Positions 13,869 through 25,322 of a stretch of DNA of 34,486 bases are shown here, piece by piece. Source of the DNA: a virus (taxonomy: Duplodnaviria > Heunggongvirae > Uroviricota > Caudoviricetes); the IMG/VR virus record IMGVR_UViG_2645727868_000009, one strand, 5' to 3'. The notes under the pieces are model-generated. The model had not been told where the DNA came from, did not search any database, and was given only the letters and a program-made list of their open reading frames with translations. The first letter of the stretch is position 1; every line of letters starts with the position of its first letter. The translations under genes were made by a program, and so were the position numbers.

Positions 13869-14777
13869 TTACTCCGTCGTACCATCAGAACCAAATGCCA
13901 TCTGCCAGAAGCCGTAACCGCCGTTACAGCGCGCTTCGGCACCAAACAGGAACTTCTTACGCCTGAACACGTTGTCGCTGTTGTAGTCCGTCTGCTCCAC
14001 AAAAACAGGCTTTTTACGCAGCTGATAAATCAGCGGTTTCACCGGTTTGGTGGTGTCAAACAGGAACCACGCAGAATCCGACGCCAGCTCCGGCATCACC
14101 AGCACGTCGGCGGTACTGCGGTACGGGTTCGGCGTACCGTCCGGGAACTTCTCGGCGGTCATCAGGTAGTTCGCGTCATCTTCCAGCGCCGGTGGCACAA
14201 CCAGCAGATTCGGGCGAATTTTGAGGGATGCGCCTTCGTCATCTTTCAGGCTGCGCATGGCAGTACGGGCGGCACCGTAGGAGGCTTTCGCCTCGGCAAG
14301 CGAGCCAACTTTGAGTTTTTTGGTGCCTTTATTGGACACCGATTTACCGGCGACCAGGTGGTCGGTATCAAAGAACATCTGGCCGTCGTAACAGGGATTG
14401 GTAAAACCGTTACTGATAAGGGACGCCACAATATCTGCCGGGAGTTCTGCCGCCGACTGTCCGGCTCCTTTTGCCTGAAGGGCATAGCCCATAATCTGGT
14501 CGTCCTCGATGTCGTTACGATCGACTTCAACCGTGGCTTCCCAGTCCTTGTTACGGATGGTGTAGTTAAATGCCGCCAGTGATTTAACGACCTTGTCGCC
14601 AATCCACTCGCGCATTTTCGGGAAACGACTTAACCAGCTGTAGTCGTTTTCCTTGCCGTTTGATGGCACTTCCATTGCCACCTTCTGCCAGTCAGTTGGC
14701 GACTGGTCGAAGGCTTTCTGGAAGGTGGCCTTCAGATTGATAAAAATCTGTTTGACGTTTTTAACGTTGACTAACAC
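13869..14777 (-). CDS. T: Major head subunit T
   Basis: Long ORF matching Mu-type major capsid position after protease/scaffold and decoration genes. Start set to GTG at 14775-14777, which has AAGGAG 6 nt upstream; track start 14819 is also GTG and the in-frame ATG at 14813 lacks an RBS. Confidence 0.8.
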   Translation of the reverse strand: MLVNVKNVKQIFINLKATFQKAFDQSPTDWQKVAMEVPSNGKENDYSWLSRFPKMREWIGDKVVKSLAAFNYTIRNKDWEATVEVDRNDIEDDQIMGYALQAKGAGQSAAELPADIVASLISNGFTNPCYDGQMFFDTDHLVAGKSVSNKGTKKLKVGSLAEAKASYGAARTAMRSLKDDEGASLKIRPNLLVVPPALEDDANYLMTAEKFPDGTPNPYRSTADVLVMPELASDSAWFLFDTTKPVKPLIYQLRKKPVFVEQTDYNSDNVFRRKKFLFGAEARCNGGYGFWQMAFGSDGTTE

Positions 14778-15183: not shown

Positions 15184-16308
15184 TTACTCATCTCCTGCGT
15201 AACGGGCGACATCCTCTGGATCGACGCCCATCATTGAACAAATGGCGATATCGACATCGACGTCATCGCCGGTTTTAATCTGCGCCGGGGCAGGCGACGG
15301 CGTTTTGGGGGCTTTGCCGCCGGTCTGTGTCTGACTGAGCGCAACAAGTTTCGGTGCGTTCTCCAGCCAGGACTTAAAGCCGTTGATATCGCGGCTGGCG
15401 TAATCTTTCGCCCAGTCTTCCTGTGCCGGAAGCAGTCGCCCGTCAGACAGCGCCGCCTGAATCAGTGTCCCGGCTTCGGCCTCACCGGACTGTTGCGCCA
15501 GTGCGGCATAACGCCCCTGAAGTTCTTCGAAGGCAGCAAGGGAAATGTGTTTTGACGGGTCATAGGCACTGGCTGACAGGCTGGCGATTTGCTCATCTTT
15601 CTGATTCAGCAGGGCCAGCAGGCTGACGGATGCCGCCGCCGTTCCCTGACCGTTCGAAATCATGTCAACGACCTTTTGCAGCTCGTTTTTGATATCTTCC
15701 GCCGTTGAGGTAACCGGGAGGTTAAGCATCCAGCGCAGACTGGACAGCAAATCGTTTAACAGTTCTTCATCCACTGTTGTGGTCTCCGTTTCAGTTGACA
15801 GACTCGCCAGACGGCTGGCCGCAGCCAGCATGACCGCGTCCATACCGTCCAGCGCCGGGGTATTGGTCAGTGCGGCGTGTAACAGTTCAATGACTTCGCC
15901 GCGCCGGTTGTATCCAAATACCGGGGAAATAAATTTGTACTCACCGGCGGCAATCATGGCCGCCGCGTTCTCCGTCCACTCCACACCGATGGCATACAGG
16001 CCTGAACCTTCACGCCATTCCACCTGGCTGAACCAGCCCGCCGCCGGGGCGGGCTTGCCGTTGTTTACGGCGCGCAGCGTCTGATGTTCGTAATCAATGA
16101 CAAAAGGCGTGGTACGGGCGGCCACCTGCGCGACAAGCTGCGCGGCCAGTTCAGCGGTCAGCACCCATTTACCGCTTTCGACTTCATCTGTATACGGGCG
16201 ACCATCCACCGCGCTGAACTCGCCCGCCGGTAACAGCTGGATTTCGCTGTGGGTTGCTTTAGTAATTTCGAGGCTTAACGCCGCAATGTTCATCTTCATA
16301 CGCGGCAT
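15184..16308 (-). CDS. I: Head protease/scaffold protein I
   Basis: ORF with conserved-looking core (IQLLPAGEF...) and Ala-rich scaffold-like C-terminal half. Track start 16353 is GTG; first ATG is 16308, with further in-frame ATGs at 16299 and 16293. Start uncertain. Confidence 0.75.
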   Translation of the reverse strand: MPRMKMNIAALSLEITKATHSEIQLLPAGEFSAVDGRPYTDEVESGKWVLTAELAAQLVAQVAARTTPFVIDYEHQTLRAVNNGKPAPAAGWFSQVEWREGSGLYAIGVEWTENAAAMIAAGEYKFISPVFGYNRRGEVIELLHAALTNTPALDGMDAVMLAAASRLASLSTETETTTVDEELLNDLLSSLRWMLNLPVTSTAEDIKNELQKVVDMISNGQGTAAASVSLLALLNQKDEQIASLSASAYDPSKHISLAAFEELQGRYAALAQQSGEAEAGTLIQAALSDGRLLPAQEDWAKDYASRDINGFKSWLENAPKLVALSQTQTGGKAPKTPSPAPAQIKTGDDVDVDIAICSMMGVDPEDVARYAGDE

Positions 16309-16339
16309 GATGACGGAAGGGGAACACGGGGTACTGTGG

Positions 16340-16356
16340 AGGGTGTTCAGCACCCT
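16340..16356. promoter_or_regulatory. Palindromic motif AGGGTG-TTCAG-CACCCT upstream of gene I (copy 1 of a shared element)
   Basis: Perfect 6-bp arms with 5-bp spacer; embedded in a 29-bp block (16328-16356) that recurs at 24488-24516. Confidence 0.5.
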
Positions 16357-16391
16357 GCCATAACGGGAAAGGATAAAAGGGGAAATAAAAC

Positions 16392-16480
16392 CGTTTTTAA
16401 AACCCTTTTAAAAACGATTCTGACGGCATTTATGGGGTGCGGTGCTGTTATGCCTCATCCGTGAGGCGTTTATGCCGTCA
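16392..16480. other. Structured G-I intergenic region with nested inverted repeats
   Basis: AT-rich perfect palindrome CGTTTTTAAAA-CCC-TTTTAAAAACG (16392-16416); 9-bp inverted repeat TGACGGCAT...ATGCCGTCA (16421-16429 / 16472-16480) enclosing hairpin GCCTCA-TCCG-TGAGGC (16452-16467); repeated TTATGCC. Confidence 0.6.
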
Positions 16481-16508
16481 CAGCCGATTACAGCGCGTTT
16501 GTCGCCAT

Positions 16509-17060
16509 TCAGTCAATCACACGCGCAAAATAGCGGTTTGCGGTGTTCTCCAGCTCGTCGATGTCGTCCTGCACGAGCTGAAGGAAGGGGCGCGCGGGCA
16601 TGTTGACCGTATATGCCCCGACAGTTGCGCTCTGCACAAAATTACTGTTGCGCTTTTTCACAAAGCGGGTGCTGACGCTGCCGTTTTTGTACTGTTTAAA
16701 ATACAGGTTCTGCGTCCGTGCCTGATGGCGGATTTCGCCGCCTTCGTTGTGGATACGGGCATAACGGACGTTTGTCCCGACCGTGGCCTCGTTATTGTTA
16801 ACCGCAGAGCGGATACTGGCAGCCAGTCGCCCGGACTTCTGAAGGATTTGCCCGGGGCCGCGTCGCTTCGCATAAGCCGGACTCCAGCCCATCCATTTCG
16901 GGCGACCCTGTTGTTCAAAGTTAGTCTCAACCGCATCCAGTATGGAACCCGCAAGTGCCGTCATCAGATCGCGCCGGTCCTTCACGGAGCGAATCAGTTT
17001 CCCCAGCGTGGTGTTATACGCGCTTAAATCAATCTTAATATCCAGTTTACCGTTGCTCAT
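16509..17060 (-). CDS. G: Virion morphogenesis protein G
   Basis: 183-aa ORF, ATG start overlapping F stop (ATGA); position after F gene as in Mu. Confidence 0.75.
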   Translation of the reverse strand: MSNGKLDIKIDLSAYNTTLGKLIRSVKDRRDLMTALAGSILDAVETNFEQQGRPKWMGWSPAYAKRRGPGQILQKSGRLAASIRSAVNNNEATVGTNVRYARIHNEGGEIRHQARTQNLYFKQYKNGSVSTRFVKKRNSNFVQSATVGAYTVNMPARPFLQLVQDDIDELENTANRYFARVID

Positions 17061-18223
17061 GATGCCTCCGGGGCGTCCTGCATAACCCAGTCTGTCAGCA
17101 CGTCATCCTCAACCGTCACCACCGACCAGCGGTCGCCCGACTGTAACGCATACCGCCACGCGTTGCCGTCCTGCGTGACATGCTCCGCCCGTTCGATGGT
17201 CTGCTGCATCAGCACATAATCAGCGGTGGTCGGGGGCGCGTCTGTTGCACTGAGGCGCTTCATGACGTCAGCCGTAAGGTTTACCGTCTGCCGTGCAGCG
17301 CCCGTGGCGGCGACCTGTTCCGGTGAACGGATGGCCAGCGGATATCGCTGGCGCGCATCCAGATCGCTGACGTTCGCCATCCCCCGGGCAAAGTCCGGCC
17401 CGGTCAGGGTGCCAGTGACGTACTGGCGGGCGCTGCGGTAATCGTATTTTTCCAGCTCCGGTTGCCATGCCACCCGACCGGGATTAAAACCGAAGCCCGG
17501 GTCGGCGGTATACACGGAGCCGTCCGGCATCTTCAGCCCCATTGTTCTGATGGTCTGGCCCGGCTGGCCATATTCCTGCTCAACCTCAACCAGTCGCCCC
17601 TCGCTGCTCTGTACCGTCAGGCCATATTTCTCCACATCCGACGCCGAACGCGCCCGGATACGGCAGCGGCATCCGTATCCGTCCGGCGCGTAGAAATACT
17701 CCCAGACCGGGTCATCCGCCCGGGCGGTAAAACCGTTCAGGGCGGCGTGTTTCGGGCGGGTGTGAAGGTCCATCACCGCCACGCGCTCAAAATAAGGCCG
17801 GTCGGCCACGTTCGCCATCTGCTGCTGATAACGCCCGGCGTTATATGACGACTGAATATTGGTATCAAATATCGTGCGCAACCGGCGCGGCGTCAGCTGT
17901 CTGCCATGCAGTTCGCCGGTGTCCTCGTCCACAATCAGCTTTTTACCCAGCCAGCCTTTTGACTCCAGCAGTGGTTCCATTTGTGCTGCAAACTCCCGGA
18001 ACGTCCCGCCGTCAGCCAGTGCCGCCGTCAGGCCATCACGGATATCCTTCAGCACATCCAGTTTCAGCACGCCTGCCACCGTGAACGCCCGGGCGTTGGC
18101 GATATCCTTCACATCGTGCCAGCGGAAGCCGATAACGTATCCCTTGCTTTCGAAATACTTAATCGCTTCTTCCGGTTTCAGGGTGTACGCATAACCCAGG
18201 TCAACATCGTCAGCTGTCGGCAT
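17057..18223 (-). CDS. F: Minor head protein F (Mu gp30-like)
   Basis: 388-aa ORF, ATG start, follows portal gene; Mu F-like head morphogenesis family by gene order and size. Confidence 0.8.
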   Translation of the reverse strand: MPTADDVDLGYAYTLKPEEAIKYFESKGYVIGFRWHDVKDIANARAFTVAGVLKLDVLKDIRDGLTAALADGGTFREFAAQMEPLLESKGWLGKKLIVDEDTGELHGRQLTPRRLRTIFDTNIQSSYNAGRYQQQMANVADRPYFERVAVMDLHTRPKHAALNGFTARADDPVWEYFYAPDGYGCRCRIRARSASDVEKYGLTVQSSEGRLVEVEQEYGQPGQTIRTMGLKMPDGSVYTADPGFGFNPGRVAWQPELEKYDYRSARQYVTGTLTGPDFARGMANVSDLDARQRYPLAIRSPEQVAATGAARQTVNLTADVMKRLSATDAPPTTADYVLMQQTIERAEHVTQDGNAWRYALQSGDRWSVVTVEDDVLTDWVMQDAPEAS

Positions 18224-21450: not shown

Positions 21451-22191
21451 TCACACCTGCGCTGCTTCTGCCTGCGCTTTTTCGATACGTGCGCAGGCGA
21501 TATCAAAATACTGGTTAGTCATTTCAATGCCGGTAAACCGTCCGCCACGGGCAAGTACCGGGATGGCGGTGGTGCCGCTTCCCATAAACGGATCGAGAAC
21601 GTGCGCATCCGGTGCCAGCGGTTTAACCAGCTCGGCCATCAGCTGAACCGGCTTTGCGGTCATGTGCAGTTTTTCGGACGGGACAACACGCTGCGTAATC
21701 ACACCCGGGAACGGGCCACCGTGCGGACATTTGTCGAGTTTTCCGTTGCTGCCCCAGACCACATACTCGGCCTGATGCCGGAAATAGCCGGTGTGTGGCG
21801 CACGGGAAGCCTGCGTTTTATCCCAGACAACAAGACCACGCCACAGCACACCACCGGCCTGAAAAACGTCGGTCATGGTGGGAAGCTGTCGCCAGTCACT
21901 GAACACCATGACATAACCACCGGGGCGCACAAGGCGGGCAGCCCCGGACATCCACAGGGTGCTCCAGTATGCCCAGCTGCGCTGGTCGCGGTTATCCCCG
22001 CTGAACTCGGCATACTGGGTGTGACCGACATACTTGTCCGAAGGGGCCATGCTGCGGTCTGATTTATGTGTGCCACCACTGCTGTAAGGCGGGTCGGTAA
22101 TGACGGCATCAAAACGTTCGGATAACGCCGGCAGCACATCAAGAACATCACCGCAATACAACGTTGCGTTACCAATAATCTGTTTTTGCAT
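21451..22191 (-). CDS. DNA methyltransferase (beta-class N6-adenine/N4-cytosine type)
   Basis: 246-aa ORF, ATG start. DPPY catalytic motif near N-terminus (VITDPPYSSGG) and FMGSGTT AdoMet-binding motif near C-terminus, i.e. motif IV before motif I. No neighbouring restriction endonuclease. Confidence 0.85.
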   Translation of the reverse strand: MQKQIIGNATLYCGDVLDVLPALSERFDAVITDPPYSSGGTHKSDRSMAPSDKYVGHTQYAEFSGDNRDQRSWAYWSTLWMSGAARLVRPGGYVMVFSDWRQLPTMTDVFQAGGVLWRGLVVWDKTQASRAPHTGYFRHQAEYVVWGSNGKLDKCPHGGPFPGVITQRVVPSEKLHMTAKPVQLMAELVKPLAPDAHVLDPFMGSGTTAIPVLARGGRFTGIEMTNQYFDIACARIEKAQAEAAQV

Positions 22192-24497: not shown

Positions 24498-24516
24498 GGG
24501 GGTGTTCAGCACCCCC
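24498..24516. promoter_or_regulatory. Palindromic motif GGGGGTG-TTCAG-CACCCCC upstream of the lysis genes (copy 2)
   Basis: Perfect 7-bp arms, same TTCAG spacer and same upstream GGGTACTG block as copy 1; located between the 95-aa gene stop and the holin start. Confidence 0.5.
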
Positions 24517-24854: not shown

Positions 24855-25322
24855 TTAATCAAAAAGCCCCACCTGGGTGGGGCTTTTCAGCGAAGTCTGT
24901 TTTTGTCGTCGGTGTATCAGTTGCCATGCGTACCGGTCTGAAATGCCGTAACGGGGACAGAGCAGTGCCAGCGCCTGCCGGTGTGAGCATCCGCCTTTTA
25001 CATGCTGCTGTAAATCAGCCATAAAACGGGTGTTACGCAGGGCACGTAACGCATGATCGCAACGGGGAATGTAAAACGGTGCGCCGCCAAGAAAACGGAT
25101 CAGTTTGTTGATTTCGTCTTCGGTCAGCACGTCATGTAACAGGGCATGGACACCGCCGGTGCGTTCGGCGTGTACGCCGGTTTTACCGCTTAACGTCACG
25201 CCACCAAAAGAACGAATCAACCGGGTCAGGGCGGGGAAGCCAATCACGCTAATCAGTTGCTGCACGGAATCGGGCAGCAGTGCCTGCGCATCGCGAAGAT
25301 CTGTTTCACTGAAGGTCTGCAT
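24855..25322 (-). CDS. Mor/C-family transcriptional activator
   Basis: 155-aa ORF, ATG start with GGAGA RBS; contains the GGxxxYIPR motif (FLGGAPFYIPR) and C-terminal helix-turn-helix-like segment characteristic of Mu Mor/C activators. Confidence 0.8.
   Translation of the reverse strand: MQTFSETDLRDAQALLPDSVQQLISVIGFPALTRLIRSFGGVTLSGKTGVHAERTGGVHALLHDVLTEDEINKLIRFLGGAPFYIPRCDHALRALRNTRFMADLQQHVKGGCSHRQALALLCPRYGISDRYAWQLIHRRQKQTSLKSPTQVGLFD
24861..24887 (-). terminator. Bidirectional terminator-like hairpin overlapping the Mor/C stop codon
   Basis: Perfect GC-rich inverted repeat GCCCCACC/GGTGGGGC flanked by AAAAA on one side and TTTT on the other; the minus-strand U-tract precedes the stop. 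Confidence 0.5.

What the first reader, a model, noticed from the sequence alone, without database searches (positions are those of the whole stretch)
16354..16508. Structured, ORF-free G-I intergenic region at the centre of the prophage
The 155-bp gap between G and I has no credible ORF but is dense in symmetry: a perfect 11-bp AT-rich palindrome, a 9-bp inverted repeat enclosing a GC hairpin, and repeated TTATGCC. In Mu the G-I gap carries the strong gyrase site needed for efficient replicative transposition and lies upstream of late promoter PI. In Pseudomonas Mu-like phages the equivalent gap is where anti-CRISPR operons are inserted. Here the slot is empty of genes but highly structured, consistent with a cis-acting site rather than a cargo locus.
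Basis: partly seen in the sequence, partly recalled or inferred. Interest (0 to 1): 0.6.

Follow-up and report, generated by a model that had tools for sequence, protein, structure and literature searches.

The report
Gyrase-site-like element plus late promoter
The gene-free stretch between head genes G and I of this E. coli Mu-like prophage most likely holds a central DNA-gyrase site like the one phage Mu needs to replicate, followed by the late promoter for gene I; this layout is already known from Mu, so the finding is ordinary.

Summary
The gap itself is 209 bp (16300-16508), not 155 bp, because gene I starts at the ATG at 16299. The prophage genes lie on the minus strand.

Alignment of 27 distinct G-I gaps shows no inserted gene anywhere and a fixed modular layout.
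- Block A (AAACGCGCTGTAA, 16488-16500) is nearly invariant.
- A segment of about 70 bp follows that is almost completely variable.
It is better described as T5A4 and T4A5 units 11 bp apart.
- A linker of variable length follows.
- A late-promoter module comes last. It has the box GGGTGCTGAACACCC (16339-16355) and a -10-like hexamer. The same 13-mer heads two other late operons.

The A-to-B distance is fixed at 82-86 bp, or one helical turn less. A gyrase motif rebuilt from published E. coli cleavage data recovers the Mu site and puts a high-scoring site at 16449-16452. Block B's T/A units then fall within 1 bp of those in Mu's right arm.

Verdict: a probable Mu-type central gyrase site plus promoter P_I. 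It is a new member of a known kind, untested experimentally, and block A remains partly unexplained.

The parts
16509..17060 (-). Gene G homologue (virion morphogenesis protein); its last ~7 bp fall inside the predicted gyrase footprint
   Evidence: Pfam Phage_tail_S, E = 6e-26. RefSeq annotates it as 'phage virion morphogenesis protein'.
16386..16515 (.). Predicted 130-bp gyrase-wrapped segment (motif positions -63 to +66)
   Evidence: The approximate Topo-Seq motif gives its best gap score, 8.5, here. That is in the upper 2e-4 tail of 275 kb of W3110 and ranks 15th of 34,357 window positions. The same centre is chosen in 54/60 bootstraps and by both half-trained models.
16488..16500 (-). Block A, AAACGCGCTGTAA: an invariant block in the predicted left arm (about -48 to -36). 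In some other genera it is also the 5' arm of a terminator-like hairpin.
   Evidence: Only 1/13 columns vary in the E. coli clade and 3/13 across genera. The left-arm motif score is 4.3, in the top 0.1%. The hairpin role in L003, L110, L001, L109 and L082 is shown.
16417..16487 (-).
   Evidence: 28/71 columns vary within the E. coli clade and 70/71 across genera. The fold z-score is -3.5 for this allele only.
16449..16452 (.). Predicted 4-bp gyrase cleavage stagger (TATG on the + strand, CATA in phage sense)
   Evidence: The motif maximum falls here. Aligning block B to a profile of Mu-family right arms independently implies position 0 at 16451, against 16452 from the motif. This is a prediction, not an experimental result.
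16392..16416 (-).
   Evidence: It is unique in the window. 0/25 columns vary in the E. coli clade, and TTTTTAAA..TTTAA is invariant across genera. The units lie at motif positions +38..+46 and +50..+58, against +36..+44 and +49..+55 in Mu.
16383..16390 (-). Third T/A unit, TTTTATTT (+62..+69), continuing the roughly 11-12 bp phasing
   Evidence: Read directly from the sequence. It is conserved only in the E. coli clade.
16356..16382 (-). Pyrimidine-rich linker between the gyrase-site module and the promoter module
   Evidence: The distance from block B to the C-box varies (63-67 or 93-101 bp) and the sequence is 97% variable across genera.
16339..16355 (-). Late-promoter activator box of P_I, with the dyad GGGTG-ctgaa-CACCC inside gtGCTGAACACCCTC
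   Evidence: The 13-mer GCTGAACACCCTC recurs on the same strand at 4423-4435 (exact) and at 24498-24510 (1 mismatch), each at the head of a late operon. The core CTGAA.CC..TC is invariant in all 27 gaps. A Mor-family activator gene lies at 24855-25322.
16307..16312 (-). -10-like hexamer CATCAT of P_I
   Evidence: All three promoters carry a yA...T hexamer exactly 27 nt after the 13-mer: CATCAT, CAGACT and TACCCT. The box-to--10 distance is invariant at 38 bp in all 27 gaps.
15184..16299 (-). Gene I (protease/scaffold). Its ATG lies 7 nt after the -10-like hexamer and has no Shine-Dalgarno sequence.
   Evidence: Pfam Mu-like_Pro, E = 1e-98. The start is taken from RefSeq and from homologues.

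Best explanation
The G-I gap holds two independent cis-acting modules read in phage sense (the minus strand).

Module 1 (about 16386-16515) is a Mu-type central strong gyrase site.
- Host DNA gyrase is predicted to bind with its cleavage centre near 16449-16452, inside a sequence-variable core.
- It would wrap the flanking DNA around the GyrA C-terminal domains.
- The right arm is block B, a run of T-tract/A-tract units with flexible TpA steps one helical turn apart. The left arm contains block A.
- As in Mu, processive supercoiling from a near-central site would fold the roughly 36-kb prophage into a plectonemic domain. That brings the two ends together for transpososome assembly at induction.

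Module 2 (16297-16355) is the late promoter P_I.
- A Mor/C-family activator encoded at 24855-25322 is inferred to bind the box GGGTGCTGAACACCC.
- With sigma-70 RNA polymerase it would start transcription at or next to the I start codon, giving a near-leaderless mRNA.

What is shown and what is inferred:
- Shown: conservation, spacing constraints, motif scores, and the three copies of the promoter box.
- Inferred: gyrase binding and cleavage, the role in replication, activator binding, and the transcription start.

The stated confidence (0.6) is for the composite. Taken separately it is about 0.85 for the promoter and about 0.6 for the gyrase site.
For: Position: the site sits between G and I at 0.535 of the prophage length; Mu's is at 0.487.

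No cargo: 27 distinct gaps contain no ORF insert.

Modular conservation: blocks A and B are nearly invariant while the 71 bp between them is 99% variable. The A-to-B distance is fixed at 82-86 bp, or 74-76 bp in the Klebsiella-phage-type family, a difference of one helical turn. The B-to-promoter distance varies from 63 to 101 bp. All 15 unique A..B modules recovered from IMG/VR lie between G and I homologues.

Gyrase motif: I fitted an approximation of the Sutormin et al. 2019 motif (PMC6379681) to 606 published coordinate/score pairs on W3110.
- It correlates at r = 0.87 with the paper's scores on held-out sites.
- It ranks the mapped Mu site 2nd of 36.6k positions.
- It picks G-stop+15..18 in 8/8 Mu-clade loci, including relatives at 56% identity.
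- In the window, the gap's best score is 8.5 at 16449, in the upper 2e-4 tail of W3110. This is stable in 54/60 bootstraps.
- Relatives peak at the same register, G-stop+54..59, in 9 of 11 loci, with scores up to 9.1.

Right-arm register: TpA steps lie at +20.5, +42.5 and +53.5 in the window, against +20.5, +41.5 and +53.5 in Mu. Distant Mu relatives carry phased TTTTTGAA units at the same places. A profile of Mu-family right arms aligns to block B and implies the same centre within 1 bp.

Background: the Mu right arm, with repeat motifs that bend DNA, is the essential part of the site (PMC10052514).

Promoter: the 13-mer occurs at three late-operon heads with identical spacing to a yA...T hexamer. 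The spacings are invariant across relatives. A Mor-family gene is present. Mu's own P_I C-box occupies the equivalent position.
Against: - No experiment: gyrase cleavage, binding and any replication phenotype are untested for this element.
- The motif is an approximation. The paper's matrix was not available, and only its symmetric part could be recovered.
- The site is not the top scorer in the window. It ranks 15th, with a bootstrap median rank of 43 of 34,357. A 209-bp segment would reach this score by chance about 4-6% of the time.
- The agreement among relatives is not independent, because the conserved blocks themselves drive the score. Three relatives (L107, L109, L004) peak elsewhere in the gap.
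- Sequence similarity to the Mu right arm is not significant on its own (nhmmer E = 0.088, second hit).
- Block A is more invariant than a merely bendable arm should be, and Mu's left arm is dispensable. In some genera block A is instead the 5' arm of a terminator-like hairpin.
- From my memory of the abstract of Oram & Pato 2004 (J Bacteriol 186:4575, not held): several central sites from Mu-like prophages were cut by gyrase yet failed to support Mu replication. A gyrase site therefore need not be a functional strong gyrase site.
Confidence: 0.6

Rival explanations
1. Blocks A and B are sequence-specific binding sites for some other architectural or regulatory protein, from the phage or the host, that bends or loops about 110 bp of DNA. 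The fit to the gyrase motif would then be a by-product of the phased AT tracts.
For: Block A is invariant beyond what bendability requires. The A-to-B spacing is held to whole helical turns, about 8 or 7. The module occurs only in this gap. The motif score is high but not the best in the window.
Against: A and B are unrelated in sequence, so they are not two copies of one operator. No candidate protein is known. No IHF or Fis consensus fits by inspection. The T/A units of block B coincide within 1 bp with those of the experimentally mapped Mu gyrase site. Mu relatives keep the phasing but not the sequence.
Confidence: 0.15
2. The conserved elements are transcription terminators for the upstream late operon (lysis genes through G). 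Block A would be the 5' arm of a GC-rich hairpin, and block B an AU-rich hairpin followed by a U tract.
For: In L003 and L110 the sequence AAACGCGCUG-9 nt-CAGCGCGUUU followed by UUAUCC folds at -16 to -18 kcal/mol. Similar hairpins occur in L001, L109 and L082. In this window, block B folds as a 16-bp AU stem (-12.3 kcal/mol) followed by AUUUCCCCUUUUAU.
Against: In the E. coli clade, including this window, the 3' arm and U tract of the block A hairpin are absent, yet block A is still invariant. The block B hairpin has few G-C pairs and z = -1.9. Its U tract exists only in the E. coli clade, and its dyad is broken in L001 and L002 while the T/A units persist. The terminator scan finds nothing on the phage-sense strand of the gap. 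A terminator does not explain the fixed A-to-B spacing.
Confidence: 0.12
3. The AT-rich phased tracts are upstream curved DNA or an UP-like element that boosts P_I, with no role for gyrase.
For: The tracts lie upstream of a promoter, and phased A/T tracts often stimulate transcription.
Against: Block B lies at about -89 to -119 from the predicted start, far from the UP-element position (-40 to -60). The distance from B to the promoter varies by up to 38 bp among relatives, while the A-to-B distance is fixed. The two other promoters with the same box have no such element. In Mu, deleting the central site left transcription normal (PMC10052514).
Confidence: 0.06
4. The hairpin and nested inverted repeat (16421-16480) form a functional RNA or DNA structure, for example an mRNA 3'-end stabiliser or a small RNA.
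For: This allele folds unusually well (-24.5 kcal/mol, z = -3.5). The 9-bp repeat is reached in only 4% of shuffles.
Against: Close alleles lose the fold (E2348/69 z = -0.7, L093 z = -1.2), and other genera have unrelated sequence with z near 0. 39% of columns vary within the E. coli clade. Rfam gives no match.
Confidence: 0.04

Closest known systems
[quoted passage not shown]
   Same: - It lies between G and I, near the centre of a roughly 36-kb transposable prophage.
- The segment is gene-free.
- The right arm carries T-tract/A-tract units at about +20, +42 and +53 from the cleavage position.
- It scores high on the E. coli gyrase cleavage motif.
- The cleavage core diverges among relatives while the arm phasing is kept.
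   Different: - The centre is predicted 57 bp after the G stop codon, against 17 bp in Mu, so the left arm is intergenic.
- The left arm holds an invariant block A, whereas Mu's left arm is dispensable.
- The two main T/A units are adjacent (11 bp apart) and together form a near-perfect palindrome.
- Its motif rank within its own genome is weaker than Mu's.
- Nothing here is tested experimentally, and sequence similarity to Mu is not significant.
Mu late promoter P_I (C-dependent late promoters Plys, PI, PP, Pmom)
   Same: - It sits immediately before gene I.
- It has an activator box in the -35 to -52 region and no -35 hexamer.
- It has a weak -10 of the form yA...T.
- The same box recurs at the heads of the other late operons.
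- A Mor/C-family activator gene lies just upstream of the lysis genes (PMC2582627).
   Different: - The box sequence is GGGTGCTGAACACCC rather than CCATAACCCC.
- Three promoters were found, not four.
- The -10 lies 6-7 nt before the ATG with no Shine-Dalgarno sequence at I and at the baseplate operon. This suggests leaderless mRNAs, whereas the Mu I ATG is preceded by an AGGA Shine-Dalgarno sequence (sequence).
Anti-CRISPR / accessory-gene slot between G and the protease gene in Pseudomonas Mu-like phages (JBD30, MP29, D3112 group)
   Same: Protease homologues of those phages are detectable at 35-41% identity.
   Different: There is no ORF here or in any of 27 related gaps. Gap length is nearly constant.
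Rho-independent terminator
   Same: Block B can form a hairpin followed by U-rich sequence. In other genera, block A begins a GC-rich hairpin followed by U's.
   Different: In this window the block A hairpin lacks its 3' arm and U tract. The block B stem is AU-rich and its dyad is not conserved. The terminator scan is negative.

Membership tests
Mu-type strong gyrase site | Located near the centre of a transposable prophage, in the G-I intergenic region | tested here: met
   The flanking genes are G and I. The site lies at 0.535 of a 35.8-kb prophage delimited by the target duplication ACTTT. Mu's site lies at 0.487.
Mu-type strong gyrase site | Fits the extended gyrase binding/cleavage motif (130 bp, with periodic arms) | tested here: met
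   The approximate motif gives a score of 8.5, in the upper 2e-4 tail of W3110, ranking 15th of 34,357 positions, with a stable centre. Caveats: the matrix is an approximation (r = 0.87) and the site is not the window maximum.
Mu-type strong gyrase site | Right arm with helically phased, anisotropically flexible sequence | tested here: met
   T/A units lie at +19..24, +38..46, +50..58 and +62..69. TpA steps fall within 1 bp of Mu's (+20.5, +41.5, +53.5).
Mu-type strong gyrase site | Sequence homology to the Mu site | tested here: inconclusive
   nhmmer with a Mu-family right-arm profile returns block B as the second hit, E = 0.088, in the correct register and on the correct strand.
Mu-type strong gyrase site | Specific, efficient gyrase cleavage (quinolone-induced) and enhanced processive supercoiling | not testable with these tools
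   This needs in vitro or in vivo cleavage and supercoiling assays.
Mu-type strong gyrase site | Required for fast replicative transposition after induction | not testable with these tools
   This needs a deletion or replacement in a lysogen.
Mor/C-dependent late promoter | Mor/C-family activator encoded by the phage | tested here: met
   Pfam Mor, E = 1.6e-6, for 24855-25322(-), lying between the GemA homologue and the lysis genes.
Mor/C-dependent late promoter | Shared upstream box at several late-operon heads, at fixed spacing from a -10 hexamer, with no -35 hexamer | tested here: met
   The 13-mer occurs three times on the coding strand, against about 0 expected for exact matches. A hexamer lies 27 nt downstream in all three. 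The sigma-70 scan finds no canonical promoter. Spacing is invariant in 27 relatives.
Mor/C-dependent late promoter | Activator-dependent transcription start mapped | not testable with these tools
   This needs 5'-end mapping and activator binding assays.
Anti-CRISPR / cargo locus | One or more small ORFs inserted between G and the protease gene, varying among relatives | tested here: not met
   There is no sense-strand ORF of 20 aa or more. Gap lengths are 205-244 bp with no insert in 27 variants.
Intrinsic terminator | GC-rich stem-loop followed by a U tract on the transcribed strand | tested here: not met
   The scan finds none on the minus strand of the gap. The block B hairpin is AU-rich with z = -1.9. 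The block A hairpin is absent in this clade.

The most novel reading that the evidence does not exclude
The A-core-B module may not be a simple copy of the Mu site. It could be a two-armed variant in which an invariant, sequence-specific left-arm block (A) and the T/A-unit right arm (B) are held a whole number of helical turns apart. Block A would either position gyrase precisely or recruit a so-far unknown architectural protein that organises the prophage into a domain. Block A might also double as a terminator arm in some lineages.
Probability: 0.15. Interest if true: 0.5.

Novelty: new member of a known kind. Interest (0 to 1): 0.3.

Why it matters
If confirmed, central gyrase sites would extend to a second, widespread lineage of enterobacterial Mu-like prophages. 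This lineage is present in 55 of 5,426 complete E. coli genomes, including E2348/69, and in Klebsiella, Buttiauxella, Trabulsiella and Intestinirhabdus.

The comparison also gives a simple signature for finding such sites. It consists of T-tract/A-tract units one helical turn apart at about +20, +42 and +53 from a sequence-variable core. This could help explain what makes a gyrase site 'strong'.

The practical consequence is small. The principle has been known from Mu since 1990, and central sites of other Mu-like prophages were already tested in 2004.

Tried and rejected
1. A crude weak/strong-base pattern taken from the published 133-bp consensus failed the positive control, because the Mu site was not among the top hits. 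I discarded it, even though its top window hit was in the gap.
2. A frequency matrix and ridge/EM regressions aimed at the full asymmetric matrix overfitted (cross-validated r = 0.65-0.79). Only the symmetric model (r = 0.87) was kept. The authors' matrix (table DS10) is cut from the stored supplement.
3. Oram & Pato 2004 and Oram et al. 2006 are not in the paper library. What I say about them comes from a review and from memory.
4. Rfam gave no match.
5. A sigma-70 promoter reading of TTGACT-18 nt-TGTAAT, spanning the G stop codon and block A, was rejected. The hexamer lacks the essential A at position 2, the -35-like hexamer is coding sequence, and it is absent in the L004 and L082 lineages although block A is present there.
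6. IHF and Fis consensus matches in blocks A and B were checked by eye; none was convincing.
7. A second near-copy of block A at 13924-13936 lies inside the major-head gene, reading in frame as AEARCNGG. I take it as chance.
8. The IMG/VR pattern scan returned mostly chance matches.

Full report
**What the window is.** It is a Mu-like prophage of E. coli with its genes on the minus strand.
- It is 100% identical to prophages in strains SCAID WND1-2021 and Ec55, and 97% identical to one in E2348/69. Copies at 94-100% identity occur in 55 of 5,426 complete E. coli genomes.
- The finding lies between a G homologue (16509-17060, Pfam Phage_tail_S) and an I homologue (Pfam Mu-like_Pro).
The true gap is therefore 16300-16508, 209 bp.

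**Checking the observation.** All the symmetry elements are present. I tested them against 1000 dinucleotide-preserving shuffles.
- The inverted repeat with perfect 11-nt arms and a 3-nt spacer (16392-16416) was never matched.
- The 9-bp inverted repeat around the GC hairpin was matched in 4.1% of shuffles.
- A 7-mer direct repeat arose in 52% of shuffles.
- No credible ORF is present and Rfam gives no match.

**Comparative anatomy.** I collected G-I gaps from genome and viral collections, giving 27 distinct sequences. They range from E. coli alleles to Intestinirhabdus, Trabulsiella and Buttiauxella (G protein 75-81% identical) and to Martelella and Klebsiella phage ST405-OXA48phi1.1 (about 51% identical).
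- Gap length is 205-209 bp, or 233-244 bp in three more distant lineages. None holds an inserted gene.
- The alignment and column counts show a modular pattern in phage sense.
  - Block A, AAACGCGCTGTAA (16500-16488), has 1/13 variable columns in the E. coli clade and 3/13 across genera.
  - A 71-bp segment follows that is 39% variable within E. coli and 99% variable across genera.
  - Block B, CGTTTTTAAAAGGGTTTTAAAAACG (16416-16392), has 0/25 variable columns in E. coli. TTTTTAAA..TTTAA is invariant everywhere.
  - Then come a variable linker, a conserved box CTGAA.CC..TC, a conserved GTCATCATG, and the ATG.
That segment folds unusually well only in this allele (z = -3.5). The value is -0.7 in E2348/69, -1.2 in another E. 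coli allele, and near 0 in other genera. These elements are therefore not conserved cis elements.

**The promoter module.**
- In Mu, the sequence itself shows the C-boxes CCATAA(C/T)CCC before lys, I and P, and TTATgccccaATAA before mom. The order in Mu's gap is G stop (17859), annotated gyrase cut (17879/80), right arm, P_I box (17987-18005), I ATG (18056).
- In the window, the 13-mer GCTGAACACCCTC occurs on the coding strand three times. It appears before I (16339-16351), before the gp46-like baseplate gene (4423-4435), and with one mismatch before the lysis genes (24498-24510), just downstream of a Mor-family activator gene.
- Each copy has a yA...T hexamer exactly 27 nt downstream: CATCAT, CAGACT and TACCCT.
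- Box-to-hexamer spacing (38 bp) and box-to-ATG spacing (50-51 bp) are invariant in all relatives.
- This is a late promoter of the Mu type with a different activator box.
- The hexamer lies 6-7 nt before the ATG with no Shine-Dalgarno sequence, both at I and at the baseplate operon. This suggests leaderless mRNAs.

**The A-core-B module.**
- Block B is unique in the window.
- The distance from A to B is 82-86 bp in the window family and 74-76 bp in the Klebsiella-phage-type family, one helical turn less, although the intervening sequence is unrelated. The distance from B to the promoter box varies from 63 to 101 bp.
- All 15 unique A..B modules recovered by a pattern scan of IMG/VR lie between G and I homologues.
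- A and B therefore behave as one unit of about 110 bp, separate from the promoter.

**Testing the gyrase idea.**
- The position matrix of Sutormin et al. 2019 (PMC6379681) is not in the stored supplement. The supplement does list cleavage-site coordinates with the authors' motif scores.
- I entered 606 coordinate/score pairs, fetched W3110 positions 1-275,000, and fitted the motif by regression.
- Only the symmetric part could be recovered. It correlates at r = 0.87 with the authors' scores on held-out sites, and only at the correct window offset. Full asymmetric fits overfitted.
- Positive controls:
  - The mapped Mu site ranks 2nd of 36.6k positions in Mu.
  - In eight Mu-clade loci, including relatives with only 56% identical G protein and diverged cores, the best gap position is always G-stop+15..18. 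Scores there are 8.8-10.4.
- In the window, the best gap position is 16449-16452 with score 8.5. That is in the upper 2e-4 tail of W3110 and ranks 15th of 34,357 window positions. Both arms contribute: left arm top 0.1%, right arm top 5%.
- The centre is the same in 54 of 60 bootstraps and in models trained on either half of the data. The bootstrap median rank is 43.
- In 9 of 11 relatives the gap maximum falls at G-stop+54..59; the window's is at +57. Scores reach 9.1. This agreement is not independent evidence, because the conserved blocks drive it.
- By chance, a 209-bp segment would reach 8.5 about 4-6% of the time.

**Register with Mu.** Counted from motif position 0:

| Genome | T/A units | TpA steps |
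|---|---|---|
| Mu right arm | +14..24, +36..44, +49..55 | +20.5, +41.5, +53.5 |
| Window | +19..24, +38..46, +50..58, +62..69 | +20.5, +42.5, +53.5, +65.5 |

- Distant Mu relatives carry non-palindromic TTTTTGAA units at the same places, four in L189 at offsets 0, +22, +33 and +44. What is conserved is therefore phased T-tract/A-tract flexibility, not dyad symmetry. The 'palindrome' of block B arises because T5A4 next to T4A5 is self-complementary.
- A profile of Mu-family right arms finds block B as its second hit in the window (E = 0.088, not significant). It aligns on the right strand and implies position 0 at 16451, against 16452 from the motif.
- A review of the Mu work states that the right arm, with repeat motifs inducing long-range bending, is essential, and that the left arm is dispensable. 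It also states that the site must be central and that deleting it delays replication without affecting transcription (PMC10052514).
- The site here lies at 0.535 of the 35.8-kb prophage.

**Rival readings.**
- A terminator role is partial at best.
  - In L003, L110, L001, L109 and the L082 type, block A is the 5' arm of a GC-rich hairpin followed by U's. The 3' arm and U tract are missing in the E. coli clade, where A is still invariant.
  - The block B hairpin is AU-rich (-12.3 kcal/mol, z = -1.9). A U tract follows it only in E. coli, and its dyad is broken in L001 and L002. The terminator scan is negative.
- An UP-element or curved-DNA role for P_I is unlikely. Block B lies about 90-120 bp upstream at a variable distance, and the two other late promoters lack it.
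- Binding of an unknown protein to A and B cannot be excluded. It is the main residual uncertainty, because block A is more invariant than a merely bendable arm needs to be.

**Conclusion.** The gap is a composite cis-acting region. It holds a probable Mu-type central gyrase site (about 16386-16515, predicted cut near 16450) followed by late promoter P_I (16297-16355).
Only the AT-rich element carries the argument, and it does so through phasing rather than palindromy.
- This is a new member of a known kind. Central gyrase sites of Mu and of several Mu-like prophages were described between 1990 and 2006.
- Confidence is about 0.85 for the promoter and about 0.6 for the gyrase site. Nothing here has been tested experimentally.

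Noticed in passing
window 16297-16312 (-) and 4382-4396 (-): At P_I and at the baseplate late promoter, the -10-like hexamer (CATCAT, CAGACT) lies only 6-7 nt before the ATG, with no Shine-Dalgarno sequence. The spacing is invariant in 27 relatives. These late mRNAs are probably leaderless, which is unusual for E. coli phage structural genes and unlike Mu gene I, whose ATG is preceded by an AGGA Shine-Dalgarno sequence.
   Followed up: partly
window 4423-4435 (-), 16339-16351 (-), 24498-24510 (-): Three copies of GCTGAACACCC(T/C)C mark the putative late promoters (baseplate, head and lysis operons). Two copies sit in a G+C-rich dyad (GGGTG-ctgaa-CACCC; GGGGGTG-ctgaa-CACCCCC). The box differs from the Mu C-box CCATAACCCC, and only one Mor/C-family gene (24855-25322) was recognised by Pfam.
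   Followed up: partly
L085 (CP082831) 1483-1487 and 37303-37307; window ends: The Mu-like prophage (35.8 kb) is inserted inside another, HK97-like prophage, splitting its capsid/protease region. It has the 5-bp target duplication ACTTT and carries repeated CAATTCTGGGCGG motifs near both ends, which are likely transposase binding sites.
   Followed up: partly
L189-L194 (IMG/VR Mu relatives), about 15-80 bp after the G stop: Distant relatives of Mu (G protein 56% identical) keep four TTTTTGAA(A) units at offsets 0, +22, +33 and +44 in the right arm of the gyrase site, while the cleavage core is unrelated to Mu's. This is a compact comparative signature of the strong gyrase site.
   Followed up: partly
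window 15184-17060 and loci L086-L105: Within the E. coli clade the G proteins are 96-100% identical while the adjacent I proteins are only 80-100% identical, and SNPs pile up between blocks A and B. The gap may be a mosaic (recombination) junction.
   Followed up: no
L003, L110, L001, L109, L082: first ~40 bp after the G stop: In these lineages, block A pairs with a downstream CAGCGCG/GCGCG followed by a U tract, forming a terminator-like hairpin after G (-12 to -19 kcal/mol). The E. coli clade has lost the 3' arm but keeps block A unchanged.
   Followed up: partly
window 13924-13936 (-): A one-mismatch copy of block A (AAGCGCGCTGTAA, identical to the block A variant in L103 and L105) lies inside the 3' end of the major-head gene, in frame as AEARCNGG. 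It is probably chance.
   Followed up: partly
window 21451-22191 (-): A DNA methyltransferase gene lies between the DUF1804 gene and the large terminase gene in the late region (RefSeq annotation of the identical prophage). It was not examined.
   Followed up: no
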